A DNA stretch of 64,000 bases. It comes from Podarcis pityusensis (taxonomy: Eukaryota). The notes beneath the pieces were generated by a model, which saw only the letters and a program-made list of their open reading frames with translations, searched no databases and was not told the origin of the DNA. Positions 1 to 55,428 of the stretch are shown piece by piece. The translations under genes were made by a program, and so were the position numbers. The stretch lies in assembly GCA_964106645.2 (NCBI GenBank), contig OZ067045.1; one strand, 5' to 3'. How positions within the stretch are numbered: position 1 is the first letter of the stretch; each line of letters begins with the position of its first letter.

Positions 1-1254
1 TAACGGGTCACTGCAGTCTACTGCAGCGCATATATTTAAAACTAGTCTTGTAACCCTGAGAGAAAGAGAGAGCTGATTTAGTTATGTAAAAGCTTCTTAA
101 CCATCTCTACATTTTAATTTAATAGACATTCTTATATGCAGTATGATTTGGGCAAATCACATTTGCAGCCTTTTATTTTAGATCATGTTCATTTTGCTCT
201 AATTATACAAGGGCATTCTGTGTTTTGGAAATTTTTCAGCAAACTGTGAAAGTGTATATTTCGGGGGGGGGGGGGCGTTAAGTGTAATGTATTATTCCTC
301 TCTTTATGAACCTTGGGTTGTTGTTTTTCTATATTCTACAGGTTTTTATCAATGAACAGCAAAATAAGCACCAAAAGTATTGGGGATTTTTGTGTCATCT
401 TTTGACATAAATCTGCCTTTCCTCTTGATTCCACAATCAAGAACTCACCAAAATTCAAGCCAACTGTATTTTATCAGAAGTACTATAACCTTTTTTTCCT
501 TGCAAGTCTGGGCTTCAGCTGGGGTGACAGTCTTGAAAACAGAGTCGCCAACTGACAGGGAAATATAATTTTTTTTTTTAAAAAAAGGTATTTGTGAAGG
601 ATGGCAGAAAAGAAAGGGGCAATGCCATGAATTCCTCTAGGGGAGGCTGCTTCACTGTCATTTTCCTCCCAGCTGGATCCTTCTTCATGGATTGTCACGT
701 GTATGGATGGTGCCAAAGTTTGTTAAGAGCAAGCAAAAGAACTCCATCAAAGCTCGTTCCCTAACACAGAAACCAATCTCCGGCCTTACATGCAAGACTT
801 AGCGAGCAGTCTTCGATACCGATCTTTTAATACTTTCATCCCGAATTTCATGTCACTGTTCTCAATCTCTGAACTAACTTGTAACTTTGCTCTCTGTTAT
901 TGTTTCTGTGTATTGGAACTGTCTGTGTCTCCTGCAGTAGCAATACACAAGAAACGTACAGAAGACCTTTTTTGAAAAATGTACTAGCGATGAGCAGCAT
1001 GCTTTGCCAAAAGCAGAAAAGAGAGGTATAAATTCATAATCATGTACCTGCATTCTATGATTCTATGAATCAGCGAATATGTAAAGATATTTTTTATTTT
1101 TAAAAAATCAAGGCTTTTGGCCAATAGTCTTATGAAGTTTTGACTCTACTTGTTTTAACTGCAATATGTTATAGTGTTGTTTTATATTGTTCTTTGGTGT
1201 GTGCGTGCATGTGTGTGTACACCAAACGTATTGAAATTATGAATAAGTGAATCA

Positions 1255-2085
1255 ATCACAGAATCTTTGAAATCTCCAATGAAGGAGAGTCCACCACCTT
1301 CTGACATAATATATTCTACTGTCAAACAGCTTTTACCCTCAAAGTTCTTCCTAATGTTGAGTCCGAATCTCCTTTCTTGTAACGTGAATCCATTGGTTTG
1401 AGACCTACGCCCTGGAGCAGCAGAAAACAAGCTTGTTCCACCTGACAGCCCTGCAGATATTTGAAGATGACTATCATATCACTTCTCAGTCTTCTTGAAG
1501 CTAAACATACCTAACTTATTGTCAATATTATTTTTAAACTGTAGTGCTTTGAACTAAGTGGGGTCTGACCAAGGCGGAATAGAGTAATACTATTACTTCC
1601 CTTGATCAGGACACTATACTTTTTTTGGTGCAATCTGGAATTGTGTTAGCTTTCTTTGGTGCTACATCACACTGCTGACTTATATTAAGCTTGTGGTCTA
1701 CTAAGACCCCTAGATCCTTTCCCTTGCCATCAGGTCCGGACGACTTGGCCGCCTCCATCTCAGCCTTCACCTCGGGGCTGCCAGCAATGTTCTGGACCTT
1801 GGTCAGGGTGGGGTAGGGGGACGGGCGGACCTCCACCTTCAGGGAGATGATCCAGTGCTTGGTGCTGCTGCATTGGTGTGGGACGTGGCCGGGGCTTCCG
1901 AGGCCGCTGCTGTAGAGGCAGGCGTGAGTCCGGGGAGGGGCTTGGCCTTTTCACATGTACTACTTGATCCTTTTCACATGTACTACTGACAAGCCAGGTG
2001 TTCTCCATTCTTTATTTGTGTACCTGATTATTTCAGCCTAAGTGTAGAATCTTACATTTGTCATTATTGAAATTCATTTTGTTAG
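1255..2085 (-). mobile_element. CR1 LINE 3' fragment (degenerate RT), interrupted by a foreign insert at ~1721-1965
   Basis: Minus-strand peptides KDLGVLVDHKLNISQQCDVAPKKANTI and LFSAAPGRRSQTNGFTLQERRFGLNIRKNF match the CR1 ORF2 C-terminal region; similar to the copies at 4850-5174 and 56760-57490. Confidence 0.9.
1721..1947 (-). pseudogene. Captured fragment of an unidentified GC3-rich protein-coding sequence inserted in CR1
   Basis: 76 stop-free codons (GQAPPRTHACLYSSGLGSPGHVPHQCSSTKHWIISLKVEVRPSPYPTLTKVQNIAGSPEVKAEMEAAKSSGPDGKG); 63/76 codons end in G/C by hand count; sharp GC step against the CR1 flanks; no splice sites at its ends. Confidence 0.6.
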
Positions 2086-3931
2086 AGCTGAAATCAATCA
2101 CAACATTAAGCTGGAGATCAGCATTGTGGCTGACAGCAGAGTCAATATATCTGCTATGGGCCAAGTGAACTAAGTATTAGCATGAGCTGAGCTTGTGTGG
2201 TAAGAAGCACAACACGAAAGGGGTACAGACAAGCAGTGAACCCCATCCCTAGTCACATGGGTAAGCTATGGCAGACTGGACTTGCCCTACCATAAAGTAG
2301 AGTGAAACAGCTGCTGGGGGCAACACAAAGGAGAGAATTGTGTGTGCTTGCACTGCTGCCCTGGATTGTAGTGGATGGTGCTATCCAGTTGCCAGTGTCA
2401 AAGTAACAGTAGTCCATGGACTGGGGGTGGCCATCTTGTCCTTTGCCTCAGGTGGCAAAACATCTTGGACCAGCCCTGAAGCTCACCAGGGATTATATGG
2501 ATGGTAAAGAGGATGATTTAACAAGGATTTACAGGTAAACAAAGTTGGCTATGCGATGACATCACTAAGGGCAAAGCTTTCTAGATTAGTCATATAGATG
2601 ATCCTACCCAACCAGGGGTTAGTCACTGAATGAGATATTATGAATCAGATATGGCTCTTCTTTCCAACACCGCCTGAGTTAGTTGTTTTCATCCACTCTA
2701 GAGAGGCTCCTGTGGCTTTAAATTTTATCCACTTTGGCCAAAATGAAAAACTTATCCATTTTAGTGTCTGCATTATAGTGGATAGAGGACAGAGACTTTT
2801 TAATATTTTTGAAACATTTATATTTTTTACTTAGTATTCAAGAAAGACTGTGCTACAGTAGGGTTGTAAACCTCATTCTTGTGGTGAAGAGAATTTATTT
2901 CTGCAAAAGAGTCCAGATCAGGAACTTTGTTGCACAACTTGTAACACCATACAGACCCCTAGCTACTGGACCCAACTACAGCGGGGACTGAGACAAGTGT
3001 TTTCCCTCTGTGTATGTCAGTGGAGACGTAGCCTGGCTGCTGAAATATAGCCAGCAATGGAGAAACACTTATGAATGTTGAAGCTAGCTGAGGAGAACTG
3101 CATGCTGTTTGCTTTTGGGAAAACAGAGACTGCTTTTTGCACTATCTGCATCTGCATGCTTGCTTGCTTCATGCTATGACATTTGTAAATAAAGAGATAC
3201 TACACAAATACACAGACACAAAATCCTAGCCCTCTTTCTTCAGAAGGACACTGATCTTGTAGCAGCTGCCCCTTCAAGCTACCATTCAGGGAAGCCTGGA
3301 GTCCCTGACACAATATTGTTAACAGCTCCAAGCCCTGGGGTGAATGAAATATCAATACAATAAATAGTTACAAGGGAAGCAGAAAATAAAAACACAGCTG
3401 CCCTTAAAAAAAAGAAAAGCCTGCACCTAAAATGACAAAGTCATTTCCTGCTTTCTCTGCAACAGACTTGCCCAATAGACTATAACTTGCAAAGGGCTTT
3501 TGTGGAATACCATTCTGCTCCAGCCTGTGTAGAGAGCAGTCAGCCGAAGGAATTAACCTTTTGAAAGAGCTCACAAGCAGGTGCCTTGTATCCCCACGGG
3601 CCTTGTGTAAATTATTGACAACATGACTAAAAGGACGCAGGATTTGCCTTAGAGATAGACCAGAGATGGGTTCTGCTGGGGGTTGCATGACGCATATCTA
3701 ATGACATTTGGAAATCCAGGCATGATGCTGTGTGCTGCCTGAGCCATCAGCTACTAAAGCTTAAATGGGATTACTATCAGAGGTGATCCAATTTCTCTAG
3801 GGGCATGGTCTATACTTACATATTTCATTCTGTTTACTAATCATGGCTTTCCACTCACCCCGCCCCTGGCAATTGTATTTGCAAGAGGGGCTCATGGGAA
3901 ACTTCATTATTATGATTATTTTTTTATATAT

Positions 3932-5559: not shown

Positions 5560-6085
5560 CTTTTTCATAAAATCTTTAGAAGTTCTGGATCAAAAGGCAC
5601 GGTAGCAATCACATTTATTCATACATGTCGCTGATGATAAAACATTGAGATAAAAACTATCTGGTGATAGGTTATCCCTTCTGCCCCAACCCGGTTGTCT
5701 TGTCACACTCTGAGATTTTCCCTTTCATGATGCTCTTTTTGGGTGATGTTTCAGCCTTAGAATGTTTGGAAATAGACATTGTAATAACGATTGCAATCAG
5801 CCCTTTGTTAATCAGCAAATTACAGGCTTGCCTTGTATTACAATGCATTTAAGCGCCAGCTGCTTATCAAAGCACATTTATGCGGTAACAAGTCTGCCAA
5901 GCCGATTCCTCGTCTATTACTGAGCTGTTAAGACTCGGCAAATGTGGTCTTAATGACTGGCTGCCATTTATTTAGGACACGGTAACCCGCCTGCTACAGC
6001 ATATTGAAAAGAGACCTGCAGGTGAGTGCATTTAAGGGACCACACTGGAGAGTCTATTATGGAAACAATGAATGGGTCTGAATGC
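5560..6085. promoter_or_regulatory. Putative conserved non-coding element (enhancer-like)
   Basis: TE-free, CpG-retaining, dense in TAAT/ATTTAT, CAGCTG and CTTTGT/ATCAAAG motifs; conservation not tested. Confidence 0.45.
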
Positions 6086-6628
6086 AGACCAGACTAGTCT
6101 GACAGCTGTGCAAGGGGCAAGTAGGGAAATGGATAAGGCACTGCAGGGTTTGGGGGTTTTGCCTCTGGGGCACATCCAACATGGAATAAATTACACACAT
6201 ACACACAGAGACAGAAAATCACAGATATTTAAAAGACTTTGACAAAACTGCTGAGCTGTTTTTATTAAAAAAGCACAACAGTTTTCAGTTCTCTTTTTTT
6301 AAAATAACCCAGCAGTTTTTCAAAGTTTTTCAATGTGGCGTGTGTGTGTGTGTGTGTGTAATTTGTTCGTGCTAGATGTGTACCATAAGCAAACCCCAAA
6401 CCCTGCAGAGCCTTCTCCATTTTCCCTCTTGTCCCATGCACAACTGCGAAAGCAGCCCAATACACGTTCAGCCCCATTCATTGTTTCCATAATAGACTTT
6501 CCGGTCTGGTCCCTTAAATATACTCACCTGCAGGTCTCTTTTCAATTTGCTGAAGCAGGTGGGTTACCATGTCCTCAATAAATGCCTGCCAGTCATTAAG
6601 ACCACATTAACCGAGTTTTTAACAGCTC
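5922..6628. repeat. Long imperfect inverted repeat (arms ~5922-6272 and ~6293-6628, ~20-nt spacer)
   Basis: Left gagctgttaagactcggcaaatgtggtcttaatgactgg...gaaaagagacctgcaggtgagt...tattatggaaacaatgaatg is the reverse complement of right cattcattgtttccataata...actcacctgcaggtctcttttc...ccagtcattaagaccacatt...aacagctc; the (CA)n/(TG)n tract is mirrored too. Confidence 0.95.
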
Positions 6629-6910
6629 GGTTTTCAAAACTGTTTCAAAACAGTTCATAATGCTTTATAGGTTTTCCCACCGACACACACTCCATTCATA
6701 GTTATTCTGGCCAGAGTATTGGATGCCTGAAAATTAATTTTGTCTACAGGCTTGGTTAACCCATTGCTTAATTTCTATTTTGTTTTTAGAATATCTGCAA
6801 GCAACCTTGTGATGCCAAGCCTTCTCCAAGTGCAGAGCAGCAATTGAAAAAAGAAAAGAAAAAGATGCACTGAAAAGCAAGGGGTTGTTAGGGATGCTGC
6901 CTGTGAGGAA

Positions 6911-7320
6911 GGGCTGTCACTCAGTGGCAGAGCATATGGCTTACCGTATTTTTCACTCTATAAGACACACCAGACCACAAGACGCACATAGTTTTTGGAG
7001 GAGGAAAACAAGAAAAAAAATATTCTGTATCTCAGAAGCCAGAACAGCAAGAGGGATCGCTGCGCAGTGAAAGCAGCAATCCCTCTTGCTGTTCTGGCTT
7101 CTAGGATAGCTGTGCAGCCTGCATTTGCTCAATAAGACGCACACACATTTCCCCTTACTTTTTAGGGGGGGAAAAGTGAGTCTTATAGAGCAAAAAATAC
7201 GGTACATGCAGAAGGTCCTGGTTGCAATTCCTAACATCTCCAGGTACAGCTGGGAGAGAACCCTGTCTGAAACCCTGGAGAGCCACTGCCAGTCGAGGAG
7301 ACAATACCTATGTTCTTACT
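6911..7320 (+). mobile_element. tRNA-derived SINE split by a MITE
   Basis: gggctgtcactcagtggcagagcat (A box) resumes after the MITE as catgcagaaggtcctggttgcaattcc...gaaaccctggagagccactgccagtc; same family at 11895-12088, 23665-23815, 33063-33263, 35130-35415, 40230-40350, 43020-43200. Confidence 0.8.
6944..7202. mobile_element. Tc1/mariner-superfamily MITE, TA TSD
   Basis: TIRs ccgtatttttcactctataagac / gtcttatagagcaaaaaatacgg; TA at 6942-6943 and 7203-7204; internal hairpin at 7034-7102. Confidence 0.9.
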
Positions 7321-8982: not shown

Positions 8983-9520
8983 TTTTACCTTTTATCAGGA
9001 AGAATATGCAGATGTCAGTGCCTCTTTCTTCCATTTGGGCGTAGATCGTTTCTCCTCTGAATATGCATCCAGATCCATTATCCAATGCATTCCAGAAAAG
9101 TCTGTCAATACTAAGTATTAAATGAGCCTCCTTTCCTCTCAAGTGCCTTGAAGGGACAGATGAGATAATCCTCCTTTGGAAATCATAGCAATGGTTCCCA
9201 CCCCGCTGTCAATAAACAGAAGAAAGGCAGAAAGGTATGTGCCTGCTTCTCTCTCAGAAGCTGCTTTCTCCCAGGAAAATCATTGGGAAAGTGTTTTCAT
9301 TTGGTGTGAGCCTGGGCCTGATTTCTTAGGATCTGGCCCTTCTCATTAATTTCTATTGTATGGTTTGAGTTACAGCACCCTCCTGGTCATTGTTAGTTCT
9401 GCTGGGCTGCCAGGTCACTTGACCAAGCTAAATGGGGTTAGGATCTAGCATGTCTGTCCTTCTTGGTCCCACCCCCACCACTCCCCCAGGACACCCACTT
9501 TTCAGGACATACAGCAGCTT

Positions 9521-10251
9521 TTTTTAAAAAAAATAATATTTATTACTTTTCCAAAAATTTAAACACTAAAAAGACAATACAATGCAATACATTATACTAA
9601 CAAAACAAAACAAAAACAATAAAATAAATCAAACAATTTCATTATCCCATCTTTCATTCACTTATTTCCACGACCTCCTCACACCTCCCTTTTTGTATTC
9701 CACTTCTGTTAATTATTTCAGCAATTCCTTTCCATCTTCCTCTGTTTTCTATCCTATAATTATCTTAACTCATTCTAACCTTATTTTTTCCTTTAATACT
9801 CTATTAATCTATTTATACTTAATTCTTTATAACGTTTCTACTAAAGCCATATAACGTCATTCCAACATTTTTCTAACATTCATTAATTTTACAGTATTTC
9901 TGTAAATAGTCTTTAAATTTTTTCCAGTCTTCTTCCACCGACTCTTCTCCCTGGTCTCGGATTCTGCCAGTCATTTCCGCCAGTTCCATATAGTCCATCA
10001 ACTTCATCTGCCATTCTTCCCGGGTGGGTAAATCTTGTGTCTTCCAATATTTTGCGATGAGTATCCTTGCTGCTGTTGTTGCATACATAAAAAAAAATTC
10101 TATCCTTCTTTGACACCAATTGGCCGACCATGCCCAGGAGAAAAGCCTCTGGTTTCTTCAGAAAGGTATATTTAAATACCTTTTTCATTTCGTTATAAAT
10201 CATCTCCCAGAATGTCTTAATCCTTGGGCATGTCTTAATCCTTGGGCATGG
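9521..10251 (-). mobile_element. 5'-truncated L1 (ORF2 C-terminus and 3' UTR), 16-bp TSD
   Basis: Peptides CPRIKTFWEMIYNEMKKVF... and YATTAARILIAKYWKTQDLPTREEWQMKL..., joined across a frameshift in an A-run near 10090; TSD ggacatacagcagctt at 9505-9520 and 10252-10267. Confidence 0.88.
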
Positions 10252-13920: not shown

Positions 13921-14667
13921 AATGGCATAATGATGTAACTGCAATCTTCTTAACAGGGAGAAGGACAGCAGAGCCCCTGTTCACTGAGAGGCCACTGTAG
14001 AGGTAGCAGATCTGGCCTCCAAAGAGTGTATTGCAGTCCTTGCTGCCACCACGTGGGCAACAGTGGGCAACACATTCCCTGGAGGCCAGATCTGCTGCCC
14101 CTGTGGATCCTGCCACTTGAGGCAGTTGCTTCACCTTGCCTCATGGGTGGGCTGGCCCTGTCTTGTTATATTTATCATTCTGAAATGTTGTTTTTGATAT
14201 ATGTTGTTATATTTGCTATTACGTGGCTCTTTTCTTATGTTATTCTTATGTTATTATTCTCGTCATGTTTGATTTTGAGATGTATTCCTCTTTTCTTTGC
14301 TGTAAGACACTTTGAGCATGATTCGTGTGTGTGGGTGTGTGTGTGTGTGTGTGGGTGTAATAGAGGTGTACAAATAAAATTATAAATGCATGAGAGCTTT
14401 AGGGTGACGATTATGCTTTTCTGGCAAACCTGCAAGCAAAACACATACCTTTTGGGAAGGGGGCATGGTTGTTGCAGTGTAAATGCAAGGATAGGAACTG
14501 AAGAACCTTCAGCAATGTGTAATGGTTGAAGGAGATAGAGTTGGCAATGTATGGGATCAGGAGCATTAAATATGTATCCCGCTTTTCATCTGTGAAATTG
14601 TAGAGGGCATTCTTACCAATATGGCCAGAATGTGCATTTCAGCTCCCTACTTGCTTAATTGCCTATG

Positions 14668-21386: not shown

Positions 21387-22838
21387 ACTAGGTCAACAGT
21401 AACATGTTCTAAATGCCTGTTTAAGAAGATGTGTTTCCCTAAGCATTATGGGCTCTGAGGCTTGTCTCCAGTGTAGCACGAAGTAACTGTTCCATCAGTG
21501 CAAGAGTTTACCCTTGTGCAATGGGGCTTCCCTGCCTTTCCTCCTCCTCCTCTTGTGTGGGGTTGATGAGAGTCACAGTTCAGAACATCTGGCAAAGGCT
21601 GCTCTAGAGCCCACTTGGCCCCCAGGTACCATTTTCTGAGTCAGATTTTCACTTATTTTCCTTTTCCCCTTTTTATAAAAAGAAAAATAATAATAATCCC
21701 ATGATGGGATGAATAGCCTCTTAAAATAATAGCCAAATGGCTGGGCTGATTGACATCTCACCCTGACCTTATCCACCAGTCATTTCCCAGCTTCCTTTAT
21801 CTGCTGCAGGGATGCAGAGAGCTCTCTCCATCTTGGCGTGATTAAAGTTGGCCTATTTGCGGCTGGTAATAAAATCCTCCACACAAGGGCTTTATTACAA
21901 CCCCCACCAAATGGAAAAAGGATGGTTAAGAGATTTAGGAGTGGAAAAAACAGGAGGAGGAAAAAAGGCCTGATCTCAGCAAAATCTCTATGCAAATGAG
22001 CTGTTAAAACTTCCAAGACTTGACATTATGGACCTAGAAGCAAAACGTATGAGAGCCATTGTAAAGAGTTAAGCATCTTTTCCCCAGTGAAGAAAGTGAA
22101 GTTTTGAAATGAACAGCACTGGGATGTTCTATTAACGATCTTTATTGCCTTGTAATTTATGGTGATCACCCCCCCCCCCTTGAGGAATTGTTTTGGAGGA
22201 AAAGGGACATCAGCCTTTCCTCTCTGCATGACATATGCCCAGTCCCTTGCTGTCTCTTGCTTTAAGCCCATGCAGAGTGGGGCTGGCCTGGCGAGTCCAG
22301 AGGGTCAGACAGATAGACCTGAAGGGATGCATTTGGGTACAGAATCTCAGGCCAAATGCAGCCCTTCAGGGCCCTTCCCAGACTGCCACCACCCCTCACT
22401 CTGCTGCATGTCCTCCGTGAGTGCTTTTGCCCAACTAACTAGCTACCCTGCTGTTAAGTATTTAAACAAAAAGTAAATTCACAGGTGTCTCAAACGTCCT
22501 TCTCTACCACATTGATGAACTGCTAGGACAGCGGCTTGATCACTTCCTGGGCTTGGTGGCAATTAAAAATATAATTTGGTAGCACAAGTGACATTGCCTC
22601 TCCACAAAACTCACCTTGCCTGCTTCCCTGCTGAAGCCAGTTCATAGACTGAAGGGGGAAGAACTAAGAAATGGATCTTCCTTTTCCACTTAGGTCAAAG
22701 TGTTGCCCTATTGTCCAGCACTGGCAACCTTGGGCAGCTGACAGAGCTCTCCTTCCTTGGCAGGCTTCACTGCTGATGCTTGCCAAGACCACACTCTGCC
22801 TTTTTTTGCTGTTCTGGTAGTCCCAGCAGTCTCATATG

Positions 22839-29139: not shown

Positions 29140-29740
29140 ATGCTTAATATTTCAAAGAAAAAAAATCTCAAAGCAGTTTACAGCACACTAAAACATCAGA
29201 TAAAACAATCCATAATAAAACATTATGGAAGAAAGTCAAATATAAAGTTTATATTCAAAGCAACATAATTAACAGGAAACTAAAATATTATCTTGAAGAT
29301 TTCAAAATAAAACATTATAAAGGAGATCAACTACAGAATGCATATTCAATACAGCAAAGTTTGCAACAAATATCTTAAACATTTCGAAAAAAAACATTAC
29401 TAAAGGAAGTTAGATATCAAATGCACATTTAAAACAACATAATTAACAAGAGAATAAAATATTATCATAAGCATAGAATACACAGTATCTGCTGATCTTG
29501 CTGCCAGTCCTGCCAGTGGTGGTTCATAGTGGGCGGTGGCTGTCAAATCTAAGTCTCGATGACCTAGGTCTGCAGTTAAGAGACTCCCAATATGGTCTTT
29601 GGCCTCCCTGTGGGGATGGGACCCTGACTGACTCCAACTACAAAAGCTAGGACTGCTGTAGTTGGAGTCAATCAGGGTGTCTCCCCAGGTCAGGTGGAAA
29701 AAGCCCTCAAGGCAGGAAGCAGGTCTTCCAGGACTCAGCC
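29140..29740 (-). mobile_element. L2-like 3' region (same family as 45858-46240)
   Basis: Reverse complement of tcctggaagacctgc...ctgccttg...gactccaactaca matches 45858-45945; ctcaaagcagtttaca is a reversed L2-type end. Confidence 0.55.
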
Positions 29741-30545: not shown

Positions 30546-33279
30546 TCTGATACCTGTCCTTGAGAATTTATTACATACCCTCCAATATTTGGCTAATGAA
30601 AATCGGGACACCCATCTTTTGGTTCCCAGAACCAAAAGATGGGTGTTTTAATTATTATTTGATTTCCTCACCTCAGCTCTGGCCTCTGAACCACAGGTTG
30701 TGGTGGCGGCAGCTTCTGCTGCTCCCGTTGAGGAAGAGGCAGCTCCCAGTCTTGGCTGGTCTACAAAACATATGGCCAGAAGCAGCAAAGGAAGTGGCTG
30801 GAGCTGAACAGGGCCTGCCATTCCTGGCACTGAACTCAATGTGGCCTTCAGGCCCATTGCCAGGAACACCCAAGACCAACGCTCACATCCCTCACCTTGG
30901 GATTCTTCTTAAGGAGTCTCTGTATTAAAGATGTCTCGAGATCTTTCGCAAAGGTGTTATTTTCTCCAGCCATGCAACGGAAGCCTTAAATACGCCCTGC
31001 CCTCTTGCTCTGCATCCACCTCTTTTATTTGAAAAGAGGGAGGCATGTCTTTTGGTGCTGCTGGCTAATTTGCAAGGAGCAGGTGGCAATTGGAGGGCTC
31101 TACAATTCCAGGCTGTACAATTTCCTCCGGCAGAAAAACTTCATTGATCAGCATTTGGATTTATGCAAGTAATTATAATTACCCTTACTGCCCCCTCATC
31201 TCAATGTCATTTGGAAAGTGGGAGTTCAGAAAGGCGATAATAGATCTCCTGCTCAATTCCTCTTCTAGTGTCAGTATGGAGTTTCAACATGCTACCACAA
31301 CTAGTTCCCTGTGTGCTAGAGACACCTTCCATGGCCCTCCTATGGATCCCTTGAACTAGCATTGCTATAAATCAGGGATGGGAAACCACTCTCAGTCTGA
31401 GGGCCATATACCCTTCTAGGAAACCTTCCGGAGGCCACATGCCAGTGATGGGCGAGCCTCACAAAACCTCTTCTCAATCTCCCTCCAGGCAAGTAAGAAG
31501 CATTATCAGAATTCAAGGACACATTCCAGCCAGGCAAAACACTCAAGGCATGGCTGGTGAGAGCTGTGACTGCAGAGCTTGTGTGACCTGGGGCCGGACA
31601 GAGAAGCCTGGAGGGCTGCATGTGGCCCCCAGGTTGGAGCATCCCCATCCCTGTTATAAATGCTTCTGGATAAAGCTTGGGGTTTCTTTGGGCAACAGTG
31701 AGCTTTGACCTTATCTGCCCACTGTTATTAAGGGCCCTTTGGGTAATTCCTTTGCCCTTGGGTGTTTGATGGGTGGCACCCCAGGAGAGGGCATCCTCTA
31801 TGGCAGCCCTCGAGTTGTGCAACTCCCTCTGGCACCTTGATTGTGTAGCTTTCATCACCTGTACCTCTTTACCCTGGTCTTTGACAGCTGAACGATATCT
31901 ATAGGAGTCACCTTGTCCTTGTGATGTAAATTGTTCTAACAGATCTTAAAATTTTATTTTTTTAATTGTTGCAATCTACCTTGGGACCTAATGGTGAAGA
32001 AAGGAAGGTAGGAAATCCTATAATTAAATGAACGAATATCTGTCCTGGTTTGACTGAGGCTCTGGTCCCAGGCATCCCTACTCATCACCCTGCAAATCTA
32101 TAACCTGCCTACAGCCAGGAACATCGTGACATGAAAACACAATCTCTTCAATAAAAGAAAATGAAAGTTCTCTTTTGTTGGGCCATGGGCAGAAAATTGG
32201 GATATAGATGTATACAACAAATAAATGTGAAAGAAGCAATAGCTTCATAATTATTTTTTACTTACTATTTTTAACTGAATACTTGCAAGCAAGCCACGGA
32301 AGTCTGTCATCCCCTTGCTTTTTATTTTATTTATTTTTATTTATTTTTTTAAATGGTCCCAGCACAATGAATTATTTAACATGGAAATATCTCATTAATT
32401 CTCAACAGGGCCTTAAATATCTTGTGTAACTGGGATAATTCAAGGTAATGAGCACGAATCTGTACCTATTGTGGCCTGTACCTGTAGGATGTTATTTGAA
32501 AGAGGACTTCATTATTGCTTTTGCTATCATCATTGGCTCTGTAGTATAGTAATTATTTGGAATGCAAGAGGTTCAAGTTCAATGCCTGCCATCTCCTGAA
32601 ACCTGGAGAGACCCTGTCAATCAGGGTAGGCAACACTGAGCTAGATGGAAAGGTCTGTAGTGCAGTGGTAGAACACATCCTTTGCACAGAGAGGGTCTCC
32701 AGTTCAATATTGTCTACACCCCTTGGCCTTCTAGATATTGCTGAACTACAGCTCCCACCAGCTCCAGGAAGCATAACCAATGGTCATGGAAGATGGGAGT
32801 TGCAGTTCCACAACATCTGGAAGGCCATTGATAAGGTTGCCATGTGTCCTCTTTTTCCAGCACACGTCCTCTTTTTCAGGGGTAAAATTTGAGACAAATT
32901 GCATTTATTTGCTTTGAATGGCCGTCATGGTGTCCTCTTTTTTGCTCTTCAAAATATGGCAGCCCTAAAGGTTTCCCTTTCCTGGCCACGTAACACTGAA
33001 CTAAATGGACCAGGCTTCATATAAAACAACTTTCCATCCTGTAAAAATTAGAAGCTCTTAGAAGGGCTGTGACTCAGTGGTGGTGAAGCACAGGCTTTGC
33101 ACATGAAAGGTCCCTGCTTCAATCCTAACATCTCCAGGCAGGACTGAAAAAGGAACATACCCTACCCAAAATCTTGGAGAGCCCCTGCCACTCAGTGTAG
33201 TCAACACTGAGTTGGATGCACCAATGGTCTGACTCATTGCAAGGAAGCTTCCAGTGTTCCTATGTGTGTGTCTGGAATG

Positions 33280-51419: not shown

Positions 51420-52627
51420 TATTTCATCTGGGGGAAAGGTGGGATATAAATATAACAATATAAATATAAGAACATAATAAATAATAATATAGTATATAAT
51501 ATATAATTATATTATAAATATATATAATATAACAATATAGCAACAAATTATTTATACAACATATAGTAAACACTTGATTTAACAAACACTGATTTAACAC
51601 CGCATAGGCATCTGTACCAGACACCATACAGCTATGTTCTGGTTTAGATTCTTTCTTTTATATTACTCTCTCTCCAGCCACCAGCTGCTTAGACATTTGT
51701 TCTCCTTCCCAACTGACAAGTCTCCAAGCGGCAGGAGAGCCACCATCTGGAAGGTCAGGAGAAAAGATAGTTTGGGAAGTGCAAATGAGCTGGCAGTCTT
51801 TCATCTGGTGCCTGGGAAATGGCAACCGCTCCCGACTCACTCAAGCAGGCCTGGGAAACAGGCCGTGCCGCATTGGGGGCCTGAGGCCTGGTTGGAGAGA
51901 GGGAGGAGATGATAGGGAAGATGGGAGCCTATCAACATCCCCTTGCACTGAGGGATGTCTTGCCATCTGTGAGAGATGTCCTGCTAAGGGAAAAGGAGTT
52001 AATGAGGAAACGAGCAAGTTATTCATGTAGGACACAGTGGATGGAGGAAGCTCCGTGGCAGTCATGTTTTGCCTGCAGGACAGAATCATCATTATTTATT
52101 TATTTTGCAAGAATATTTATATGCTACAAAATCCTAAGAAAGGAATTGTCCTCTGTTCCCGCTACTATTTGTTTTAGTTTTTGAGCCTCTGGCACTGCAC
52201 TTGAGGACTGTGGTGGGAACACAGGGGCTCCTGACTGGTGACAAAATATACATTTTAGAGACGTACTCAGACAGCATGGTGTGGGTTACACTCATCCAAT
52301 TCACACAGCTATGATTCTGAAAGAAGAATGGGGGGCGGGGGCAGGGAAAGAGTATAGTTTCTGGCTTGAATGAGAATTTCCTTAAACTAGGGGTTATGCT
52401 CATTAATATTCAACCATATATACAGACTCCCCTTTCCAATCACTTCCACTTTGGATACCCCCCCCAAGACAATTGGCTTTATGGAAAAAGAAACTAAATA
52501 GCATACCTTACAAGTATCCTGGGAAAAAGGGACATTCCATTTTTTCGCAAAAGAGCACAGCGGCTATTTTGGGGGCTGTAATCTCTAGGTTTGTCATTGC
52601 TTTTCTTCCAAGAAGCAGGCGTCTTTT

Positions 52628-53163
52628 AAAAGACACCTGCTTCTTGGGAGAAAAGCGATGACAAACCTAGACAGCATCTTAAAAAGCAGAGACATCACCT
52701 TGCTGACAAAGGTCTGTATAGTTAAAGCTATTGTTTTCCCAGTAGTGATGTATGGAAGTGAGAGCTGGACCATAAAGAAGGCTGATCGCGGAAGAATTGA
52801 TGCTTTTGAATTATGGTGCTGGAGGAGACTCTTGAGAGTCCCATGGACTGCAAGAAGATCAAACCTATCCATTCTGAAGGAAATCAGCCTTGAGTGCTCA
52901 CTGGAAGGACAGATCCTGAAGCTGAGGCTCCAATACTTTGGCTACCTCTTGAGAAGAGAAGACTCCCTGGAAAAGACCCTGATGTTGGGAAAGATTGAGG
53001 GCACAAGGAGAAGGGGACGACAGAGGGTGAGATGGTTGGACAGTGTTCTCGAAGCTACCAGCATGAGTTTGACGAAACTGCGGGAGGCAGTGGAAGACAG
53101 GAGTGCCTGGCATGCTCTGGTCCATGGGGTCACAAAGAGTTGGACACGACTAAACGACTACAA
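52628..53163 (+). mobile_element. BovB (RTE) LINE 3' fragment, open RT C-terminal frame
   Basis: ORF 52658..53179: MTNLDSILKSRDITLLTKVCIVKAIVFPVVMYGSESWTIKKADRGRIDAFELWCWRRLLRVPWTARRSN...; 5' fold-back at 52584-52627. Confidence 0.95.
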
Positions 53164-54996: not shown

Positions 54997-55428
54997 TTGT
55001 TGTTGTTTAGTTGTTCAGTCATGTCCGACTCTTTGTGACCCCAGGGACCAGAGCACGCCAGGCACTCCTGTCTTCCACTGCCTCCCGCAGTTTGGTCAGA
55101 CTCATGTTGGTAGCTTTGAGAACACTGTCCAATCATCTTGTCCTCTGTTGTCCCCTTCTCCTTGTGCCCTCAATCTTTCCCAACATCAGGGTCTTTTCCA
55201 AGGAGTCTTTTCTTCTCATGAGGTGGCCAAAGTATTGGAGCTTCAGCTTCAGGATCTGTCCTTCCAGTGAGCACTCAGGGCTGATTTCCTTCAGAATGGA
55301 TAGGTTTGATCTACTTGCAGTCCATGGGACTCTCAAGAGTCTCCTCCAGCACCATAATTCAAAACCATCAATTCTTTGACAATCAGCCTTCTTCCATTCA
55401 TCACTACTGGGAAAACCATAGCTTTAAC
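54997..55428 (-). mobile_element. BovB (RTE) LINE 3' fragment with internal deletions
   Basis: ORF 55133..55336 RVPWTASRSNLSILKEISPECSLEGQILKLKLQYFGHLMRRKDSLEKTLMLGKIEG; (TTG)n tail at left. Confidence 0.93.

What the first reader, a model, noticed from the sequence alone, without database searches (positions are those of the whole stretch)
5922..6628. ~707-bp palindrome that mirror-duplicates part of an enhancer-like element, with uneven arm divergence
Seen: two ~340-350-bp inverted arms around a ~20-nt spacer, with no recognisable TSD or TE signature and no other copy in the window. The outer ~155 bp differ at only about 15 substitutions plus one indel (about 90% identity by hand). The inner part is clearly more diverged (tgcagaccagactagtctga vs cgtgtattgggctgctttcg). 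The left arm continues leftward into an unduplicated enhancer-like block (5560-5921). Inference: a fold-back duplication whose outer module is kept in both copies by selection or arm-to-arm conversion. It could be a duplicated enhancer, a cruciform, or a long dsRNA hairpin (ADAR or endo-siRNA substrate). Best candidate here for an undescribed system.
Basis: partly seen in the sequence, partly recalled or inferred. Interest (0 to 1): 0.75.

Follow-up and report, generated by a model that had tools for sequence, protein, structure and literature searches.

The report
Old, decaying 713-base mirror repeat
A 350-base stretch of non-coding DNA sits next to its own mirror copy, and the two copies have drifted apart like ordinary old DNA, so it is most likely a replication slip beside a regulatory element or an unrecognised transposon rather than a new system.

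Summary
The palindrome is real and single-copy in the window: arms 5919-6279 and 6288-6631, 284 of 343 ungapped columns identical, no target duplication of 4 nt or more. Uneven divergence is only partly confirmed. It comes mostly from one 24-nt block (13 mismatches, 7 at CpG columns); breakpoint-corrected p is 0.03-0.05, and without the block it is not significant. Upkeep of both arms is not supported: 9 of 10 visible CpG sites differ between arms, there is no conversion tract and no overall wobble bias.

The arm's terminal decamer recurs exactly at the centre, and the right junction resembles the centre. That fits a fold-back template switch that copied resident DNA, with the left arm original and only it constrained (0.45). 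Two hairpins and T-flanks at the right end fit a Helentron-like non-autonomous element (0.2); another palindromic transposon gets 0.2. One oddity is unexplained: four Smad-type pentamers in the left arm lie exactly on the diverged block. Orthologues and a repeat-library search would decide it and could not be run. Interest 0.3.

The parts
5919..6279 (+). Left arm (inferred original copy)
   Evidence: Local alignment to the reverse complement of the right arm
6288..6631 (-). Right arm (inferred mirror copy)
   Evidence: 284 of 343 ungapped columns identical to the left arm
6280..6287 (.). Minimal spacer; up to 6273-6294 under stricter scoring
5919..6080 (+). Outer module of left arm (pairs with 6469-6631); 17 of 162 mismatches, 1 gap
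6081..6104 (+). Most diverged block (pairs with about 6445-6468): 13 of 24 mismatches, 7 at CpG columns, 9 G-U-compatible on the minus strand
6076..6101 (+). Four copies of the pentamer CAGAC/GTCTG in both orientations (Smad/CAGA-box type; name recalled), left arm only
   Evidence: Only such cluster in the window; 1 in 40 simulated 64-kb sequences
5920..5929 (+). Terminal decamer of the left arm (putative return-switch microhomology, or 5' subterminal repeat)
   Evidence: Exact copies only at 5920 and 6251 in 64 kb, both strands; 7 sites at one mismatch or fewer
6251..6260 (+). Exact second copy of the terminal decamer, near the axis, 331 nt from the first
6244..6333 (.). Compound A/T-rich centre: local hairpin 6244-6262/6267-6285 and 26-nt direct repeat 6260-6285/6294-6319 (81%)
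6191..6215 (+). Degenerate CA microsatellite; purer GT copy at about 6339-6359 in the right arm
6609..6632 (.). Terminal hairpin at the right junction, perfect 7-bp stem; the left-end counterpart is degenerate
6638..6655 (.). Second hairpin, perfect 8-bp stem, outside the duplicated arm; TTT follows at 6664-6666
   Evidence: the hairpin pair is 1 of 4 such places in the window
5560..5918 (.). Unduplicated single-copy block, A/T-rich and CpG-retaining; enhancer-like by inference only
6019..6027 (+). Perfect splice-donor consensus, mirrored on the minus strand from 6530; no exon evidence
   Evidence: searches found no homologue of the upstream frame

Best explanation
A one-off fold-back duplication of resident DNA by replication template switching, now an old relic. 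Inferred sequence of events: the ancestral locus carried the left arm and, at its inner end, a short imperfect A/T-rich hairpin. The polymerase switched strand at that hairpin and copied about 340 nt backwards. It returned to the original template where the decamer at the arm's outer end matched the hairpin's right half (switch order 3-2-1-4 in the four-point model). The new perfect palindrome was stabilised by small indels near its centre, and the arms then drifted independently, with CpG decay. The left outer 160 nt probably belong to a constrained regulatory element with the block to their left, which would halve arm divergence there. The right arm is a by-product with no function of its own. 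Shown: the repeat, the junction homologies, independent divergence. Inferred: the mechanism, which arm is original, and any enhancer function.
For: Terminal decamer recurs exactly at the centre; 2 exact copies in 64 kb. The right junction 6616-6649 resembles the centre directly (score reached by 27 of 6308 control windows) and inverted (40 of 6312), the order this model predicts. No target duplication; no second copy. Outer/inner ratio 0.41, interval 0.21-0.71, includes the 0.5 expected if one arm is frozen. GTCT/AGAC sites continue across the left junction (5892, 5912, 5931, 5947); the left arm has 8 in 184 nt against 4 in the right counterpart and at most 7 elsewhere. 6 of 7 gaps lie in the inner half; PMC1803023 (passages) states that mammalian inverted repeats are stabilised by central asymmetry. 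Six short palindromes of 39-108 nt elsewhere in the window show that such structures are common here. PMC5453318 (passages): type 3-2-1-4 and its mirror made up 31% of high-confidence human-chimp events.
Against: The pre-duplication sequence looks CpG-rich: about 12 sites inferred against 17 expected at o/e 1, window median o/e 0.17. The left inner arm has lost all of its CpGs, which suits a newly inserted element better than resident DNA. In the outer module CpG loss is symmetric (2 and 2), not one-sided. Strong/weak polarity is uninformative (7 to 4 outer, 15 to 15 inner). The right flank alone does not match the centre beyond chance (673 of 6296 controls), and these sequences are A/T-rich. 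The two hairpins at the right junction are not predicted by this model. The extra 34-nt-period repeat at the centre needs a further event; if it means the return point preceded the exit point, that order was not observed in PMC5453318. Events in that paper are much shorter. The GTCT/AGAC excess is matched by some 4-mer in 11 of 341 control windows. No orthologue was seen.
Confidence: 0.45

Rival explanations
1. A palindromic non-autonomous rolling-circle element of the Helentron/Helitron2 (HLE2, HINE) kind, spanning about 5918-6666, inserted whole at a T-rich site beside the block and decaying since.
For: Terminal anatomy matches PMC3627910, PMC4067079 and PMC11417382 (passages): TT just left of the repeat start, a hairpin that includes the terminal repeat (6609-6632), a second hairpin 6 nt beyond it (6638-6655), TTT 8 nt further, no target duplication, an internal microsatellite. 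Each hairpin condition holds at 0.8% of window positions and both at 0.03%; 4 such places in 64 kb. CpG-rich ancestor decaying in both arms.
Against: The described terminal repeats are 8-18 nt, not 350. The left-end hairpin is degenerate. The features were noticed after the fact. The central copy of the terminal decamer needs an added fold-back. HELIANO Table S10 lists only HLE1 for 2 of 4 reptile genomes and no HLE2 (that tool needs an intact transposase). The Helentron distribution sheet of PMC4067079 names no reptile. The terminal decamer was not found in either paper's supplements.
Confidence: 0.2
2. Another palindromic transposon relic: a long-TIR/foldback MITE with a decayed TA target, or a truncated Penelope-like insertion with head-to-head inverted repeats and a one-sided tail.
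For: High prior: LIRBase reports that a large share of long inverted repeats come from transposons (PMC8728187, passages). At least 17% of the window is internally repeated. TA precedes 5920 and TT follows 6630, one change from a TA duplication. Penelope insertions show inverted repeats, palindromes at the junction and an optional 31-bp tail (PMC3846280, passages). Non-CpG arm divergence, 47 of 323, lies within the 3-24% range of 21 dispersed repeat pairs.
Against: No target duplication of 4 nt or more. No hammerhead by Rfam or by pattern. No RT, endonuclease or transposase domain among 431 frames scanned. 0 of 21 dispersed pairs (not independent) show unevenness below p 0.13.
Confidence: 0.2
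3. Both arms are maintained, by selection on a duplicated enhancer or RNA hairpin or by arm-to-arm conversion.
For: The outer module is less diverged (corrected p 0.03-0.05). Three perfect duplex stretches of 21-26 bp would form if the region were transcribed. In the diverged block 9 of 13 mismatches still pair as G-U on the minus strand against 1 on the plus strand.
Against: 9 of 10 visible CpG sites differ between arms. No excess perfect run (539 of 5000). No overall wobble bias (15 to 19), and 4 of the block's 9 wobbles are reciprocal CpG decays. Conversion-maintained arms in PMC1803023 are mostly 95-100% identical (passages). No Rfam family at gathering score; 8 matches at E 1 or below, all far under their gathering scores.
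Confidence: 0.1
4. Assembly or sequencing fold-back artefact.
For: Fold-back chimeras produce inverted copies around short hairpins (own knowledge).
Against: The arms differ at 17% of columns, with 7 gaps and reciprocal CpG decay. An artefact would give near-identical arms.
Confidence: 0.02

Closest known systems
Four-point template-switch events, type 3-2-1-4 (PMC5453318, passages seen)
   Same: An inverted copy of adjacent sequence placed next to its source, no target duplication, complex junctions.
   Different: Those events are short and were shown against a reference allele. This one is about 340 nt, 17% diverged, and its ancestral allele was not available.
Fold-back inverted duplications primed at short inverted repeats (PMC7999016, passages; PMC3907307, listing only)
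   Same: A short imperfect hairpin at the axis and a small asymmetric spacer.
   Different: Those are large rearrangements. Here the event is sub-kilobase and returns to the original template.
Helentron/Helitron2 non-autonomous elements, HINE and DINE-1 (PMC4067079, PMC3627910, PMC11417382; passages and supplement rows)
   Same: Terminal repeat that forms its own hairpin, second hairpin beyond the 3' repeat, T-rich flanks, no target duplication, internal microsatellite.
   Different: Their terminal repeats are short and the body is not palindromic. They are multicopy, and none was listed for reptiles in the tables searched.
Penelope-like elements with inverted pLTRs (PMC3846280, passages)
   Same: Head-to-head arms, palindromic junction, extra sequence on one side.
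   Different: No ORF, no hammerhead, no 8-10-bp target duplication; the splice donor points toward the axis.
Conversion-maintained inverted repeats of Caenorhabditis (PMC1803023, passages)
   Same: Intergenic arms around a short spacer.
   Different: Those are mostly 95-100% identical and tied to gene pairs. Here identity is 83% with independent CpG loss.
Long inverted repeats / hairpin-RNA loci of LIRBase (PMC8728187, passages)
   Same: Would fold into a long hairpin if transcribed.
   Different: Arms are under that database's 400-nt cut-off, and no transcript or small RNA is known.

Membership tests
Template-switch inverted duplication (3-2-1-4) | Reverse-complement copy of neighbouring sequence | tested here: met
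Template-switch inverted duplication (3-2-1-4) | Homology at the switch points (typical; not required by the model) | tested here: met
   Exact decamer at 5920 and 6251; junction-centre score reached by 27 of 6308 controls; flank alone not significant
Template-switch inverted duplication (3-2-1-4) | Ancestral one-arm allele in an outgroup | not testable with these tools
Helentron/Helitron2 non-autonomous (HINE) | Short (8-18 nt) asymmetric terminal inverted repeats | tested here: not met
   The repeat is asymmetric to the putative ends but about 350 nt long
Helentron/Helitron2 non-autonomous (HINE) | 5' hairpin involving the terminal repeat | tested here: inconclusive
   Perfect 7-bp stem only in the right-end copy; degenerate at the left end
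Helentron/Helitron2 non-autonomous (HINE) | Stem-loop just beyond the 3' repeat | tested here: met
   6638-6655, 8-bp stem
Helentron/Helitron2 non-autonomous (HINE) | T-T insertion without target duplication | tested here: inconclusive
   TT at 5917-5918, TTT at 6664-6666, no TSD; no empty site available
Helentron/Helitron2 non-autonomous (HINE) | Dispersed copies and an autonomous RepHel partner | not testable with these tools
   None in the 64 kb; rest of the genome not available
Tc1/mariner-type MITE or foldback element | TA target duplication | tested here: inconclusive
   TA left of 5920, TT right of 6630; the rule is recalled
Tc1/mariner-type MITE or foldback element | High copy number with shared termini | not testable with these tools
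   One copy in 64 kb
Penelope-like element | Inverted pLTRs with junction palindrome and optional tail | tested here: inconclusive
   Geometry similar; no sequence comparison possible
Penelope-like element | RT/GIY-YIG ORF or hammerhead ribozyme | tested here: not met
Crypton-derived Eulor5/Eulor6 | 4-6-bp terminal direct repeats and no TIRs | tested here: not met
   No flanking direct repeat of 4 nt or more; definition from PMC3212892 passages
Eulor/UCON ancient repeats | Match to a Repbase/Dfam consensus | not testable with these tools
Conversion-maintained palindrome | Near-identical arms or conversion tracts | tested here: not met
   89.5% outer identity; longest run 26 nt, 539 of 5000 permutations; 4 of 5 outer CpG sites differ
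Conversion-maintained palindrome | Arms closer to each other than to orthologues | not testable with these tools
   No orthologues
Hairpin-RNA / endo-siRNA / miRNA locus | Transcription, processing to 21-23 nt, or editing | not testable with these tools
   No RNA data
Hairpin-RNA / endo-siRNA / miRNA locus | Match to a curated RNA family | tested here: not met
   0 at gathering score; best sub-threshold 61 bits against a cut-off of 211

The most novel reading that the evidence does not exclude
A lineage-specific fold-back duplication of a Smad- and GATA-motif enhancer became a two-layer element. The left arm keeps or gained a four-site Smad cluster. The right arm lost exactly those sites through changes that still pair as G-U in a minus-strand transcript (9 of 13), so motif dosage was cut while a long RNA hairpin was kept. 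A second, less novel but likelier reading (about 0.2) is a fully palindromic Helentron-type element in a reptile.
Probability: 0.07. Interest if true: 0.75.

Novelty: new member of a known kind. Interest (0 to 1): 0.3.

Why it matters
Under the best reading it is an ordinary event with one use. A mirror copy lying beside its source is an internal neutral control, so orthologues would show directly which bases of the left arm are constrained and how a new 700-bp palindrome gets stabilised. If it is a Helentron-type element, it would extend HLE2 to a lineage where the tables searched list none, in a fully palindromic form. Only if the right arm proves constrained would it bear on the open question of whether long inverted repeats in vertebrates are kept for RNA or DNA structure.

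Tried and rejected
Coding exon in the arms. Both arms carry the window's only perfect donor consensus, with a short open frame upstream. A two-sequence profile found nothing in the PDB below E 0.2 (11 weak rows) and 0 of 20 candidates in the protein collection (weak evidence). The 92-aa frame in the right arm gave 0 of 1 candidates. Rejected; one such 9-mer per window is about chance (own estimate).

Host gene. 0 of 431 frames matched Pfam: all 423 of 55 aa or more plus 8 shorter ones near the repeat. 245 of 249 frames of 45-54 aa were not scanned, so short exons are not excluded.

Known RNA family: none. Plasmid or vector DNA: no match. Crypton/Eulor: recalled as a lead, termini not met, consensus not available. 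Hammerhead/retrozyme: no pattern.

CpG decay as the whole cause of unevenness. My first idea; rejected. It removes the dense cluster (8 to 9 of 13 mismatches were not needed to fall for this: densest non-CpG window reached by 1408-3197 of 5000 permutations), but the outer/inner contrast persists at 235 of 5000.

Polarising changes by strong/weak bias: uninformative.

Literature. Ten searches, read at listing level, showed no paper describing this element. The single full-text hit for the terminal 12-mer (PMC10130345, a chicken plumage note, listing only) was not opened.

Not run: protein-representative, atlas, structure, complex and GTDB searches, as they do not bear on non-coding vertebrate DNA. 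Conservation of the block 5560-5918 stayed unchecked.

Full report
Observation. The window is N-free, about 43% GC, and non-coding as far as tested: 0 of 431 frames matched Pfam and no Rfam family reached its gathering score. Its repeats look like those of a lizard; that is recalled, not tested. The inverted repeat is real. Arms 5919-6279 and 6288-6631 align with 284 of 343 ungapped columns identical and 7 gaps; self-BLASTN gives E 5e-162. The spacer is 8-22 nt depending on scoring. No other copy of the arms or of the block was found in the window, and no flanking direct repeat of 4-12 nt at the boundaries tried. Arms 17% apart with reciprocal CpG decay are not an assembly fold-back.

Uneven divergence. 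Outer 17 of 162, inner 42 of 181 mismatches. The naive Fisher p of 0.003 becomes 57 of 2000 once the breakpoint is free. Most of the signal is the block 6081-6104 (13 of 24); without it the test gives 559 of 2000, and outer versus 6105-6190 gives p 0.07-0.30 across 4 scorings. Seven of the block's 13 mismatches lie in CpG columns, including two CA/TG pairs where each arm lost the same CpG in a different way. With CpG columns removed the cluster is no longer dense, but the outer/inner contrast remains borderline, 13 of 152 against 34 of 171, 235 of 5000. None of 21 overlapping dispersed-repeat pairs in the window was as uneven (lowest p 0.13). So there is one hot block and a mild, borderline excess inward.

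Are both arms maintained? Of 10 visible CpG sites, 1 survives in both arms, 2 only left, 5 only right and 2 decayed reciprocally. In the outer module 4 of 5 differ. The longest perfect run, 26 nt, is reached by 539 of 5000 permutations. G-U-compatible differences split 15 to 19 between strands. Non-CpG divergence, 47 of 323, lies in the middle of the 3-24% range of the window's dispersed repeat pairs. The corrected outer/inner ratio is 0.41 (0.21-0.71; optimistic, as the breakpoint was chosen after the fact). Constraint on one arm alone predicts about 0.5. Nothing here requires selection on both copies or conversion.

Junctions. The decamer 5920-5929 recurs exactly at 6251-6260; these are its only exact copies in 64 kb on both strands. 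The right junction 6616-6649 resembles the centre directly (score reached by 27 of 6308 control windows) and inverted (40 of 6312); with the centre as query, 31 and 45 of 6312. The flank alone is not significant (673 of 6296), and the sequences are A/T-rich. The centre holds a local hairpin and a 26-nt direct repeat. This order is what a template switch predicts if it left at a resident hairpin, copied the arm backwards and returned at the decamer: type 3-2-1-4 in PMC5453318 (passages), 31% of high-confidence events with its mirror. That paper did not observe orders in which the return precedes the exit, which counts against one reading of the extra central repeat. Six of 7 gaps are in the inner half, in line with stabilisation by central asymmetry (PMC1803023, passages).

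The transposon case. The right end carries a perfect 7-bp hairpin (6609-6632), an 8-bp hairpin (6638-6655) and TTT at 6664-6666; TT precedes the left end. Such a hairpin pair occurs at 4 places in the window. This matches the termini described for Helitron2/Helentron elements (PMC3627910, PMC4067079, PMC11417382; passages), and the CpG-rich ancestor (about 12 sites against 17 at o/e 1; window median 0.17) suits a newly inserted element. Against membership: the terminal repeat is 350 nt rather than 8-18, the left hairpin is degenerate, the HELIANO table lists no HLE2 for 4 reptile genomes, the Helentron distribution sheet names no reptile, and the terminal decamer is absent from both papers' supplements as held. 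Alignments printed as figures could not be seen. A decayed-TA MITE or a Penelope-type inverted insertion (PMC3846280, passages) stays open on prior grounds, since LIRBase finds many long inverted repeats to be transposon-made (PMC8728187, passages). No hammerhead, ORF or target duplication supports them. PMC12001565 (passages) reports a Helitron family in lacertid genomes, but the passages mention neither HLE2 nor palindromes. Crypton termini (PMC3212892, PMC5753468; passages) were not met.

The left block and the pentamer cluster. 5560-5918 is single-copy, 39% GC after a 53% GC flank, with 8 CpG (o/e 0.59; 2.9% of 1061 windows reach it) and GATA-type sites at 13.9 per kb against 1.8 (one of 8 motifs tried). 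GTCT/AGAC sites run across the junction into the left arm, which has the window's highest density (8 in 184 nt; right counterpart 4; elsewhere at most 7), though some 4-mer does as well in 11 of 341 control windows. At 6076-6101 the left arm has four CAGAC/GTCTG copies in both orientations, the only such cluster in the window and seen once in 40 simulated sequences. It coincides with the most diverged block and is absent from the right arm. It could be the scar of short template switches or a Smad-site cluster (the motif name is recalled). I cannot polarise it, and it stays unexplained. It is the most interesting feature of the locus.

Verdict. Most likely (0.45) an old local fold-back duplication whose left copy is the original and may belong to an enhancer, while the right copy is passive. 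Transposon origins together are nearly as likely (0.2 Helentron-like, 0.2 other). Upkeep of both arms 0.1, artefact 0.02. These weights are my judgement, not a computation. Ten literature searches (listings) showed no description of this element, but no repeat library or vertebrate genome could be searched, so novelty at family level is untested. New member of a known kind; interest 0.3.

Noticed in passing
window 6076-6101: Four CAGAC/GTCTG pentamers in both orientations, left arm only, on the most diverged block; unique in the window, 1 in 40 simulations. Unexplained.
   Followed up: partly
window 5635-5670: Four GATA-type sites within about 35 nt of the unduplicated block, a fifth near 5865 (read; density).
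   Followed up: partly
window 6019-6027 and 6530-6522: The window's only perfect splice-donor consensus lies once in each arm, in the 25-nt identical run 6003-6027; the upstream frame has no homologue.
   Followed up: yes
window 6943-7202: TA-flanked element with terminal inverted repeats and an 81-nt central palindrome (7028-7108); looks like a Tc1/mariner MITE (class recalled).
   Followed up: no
window 52584-52671, 29611-29687, 13999-14102, 30608-30646, 22318-22370: Further short palindromes of 39-104 nt, 74-93% complementary; the first lies next to a young dispersed repeat.
   Followed up: partly
window 52721-53160 and 55008-55428: Two young repeat copies in inverted orientation about 1.8 kb apart, 89-93% complementary: a better dsRNA candidate than the palindrome if the region is transcribed.
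   Followed up: no
window 661-1140: Another CpG-retaining stretch (o/e 0.6-0.7) with no repeat match in the window; possibly a second constrained block.
   Followed up: no
window 1720-1960: GC-rich insert inside an old repeat, with an internal 22-nt direct repeat at about 1945-1990 (read); origin not examined.
   Followed up: no
window 9500-10210: Long A/T-rich pyrimidine-skewed stretch that looks like the 3' end of a LINE on the minus strand (recalled); no Pfam hit.
   Followed up: no
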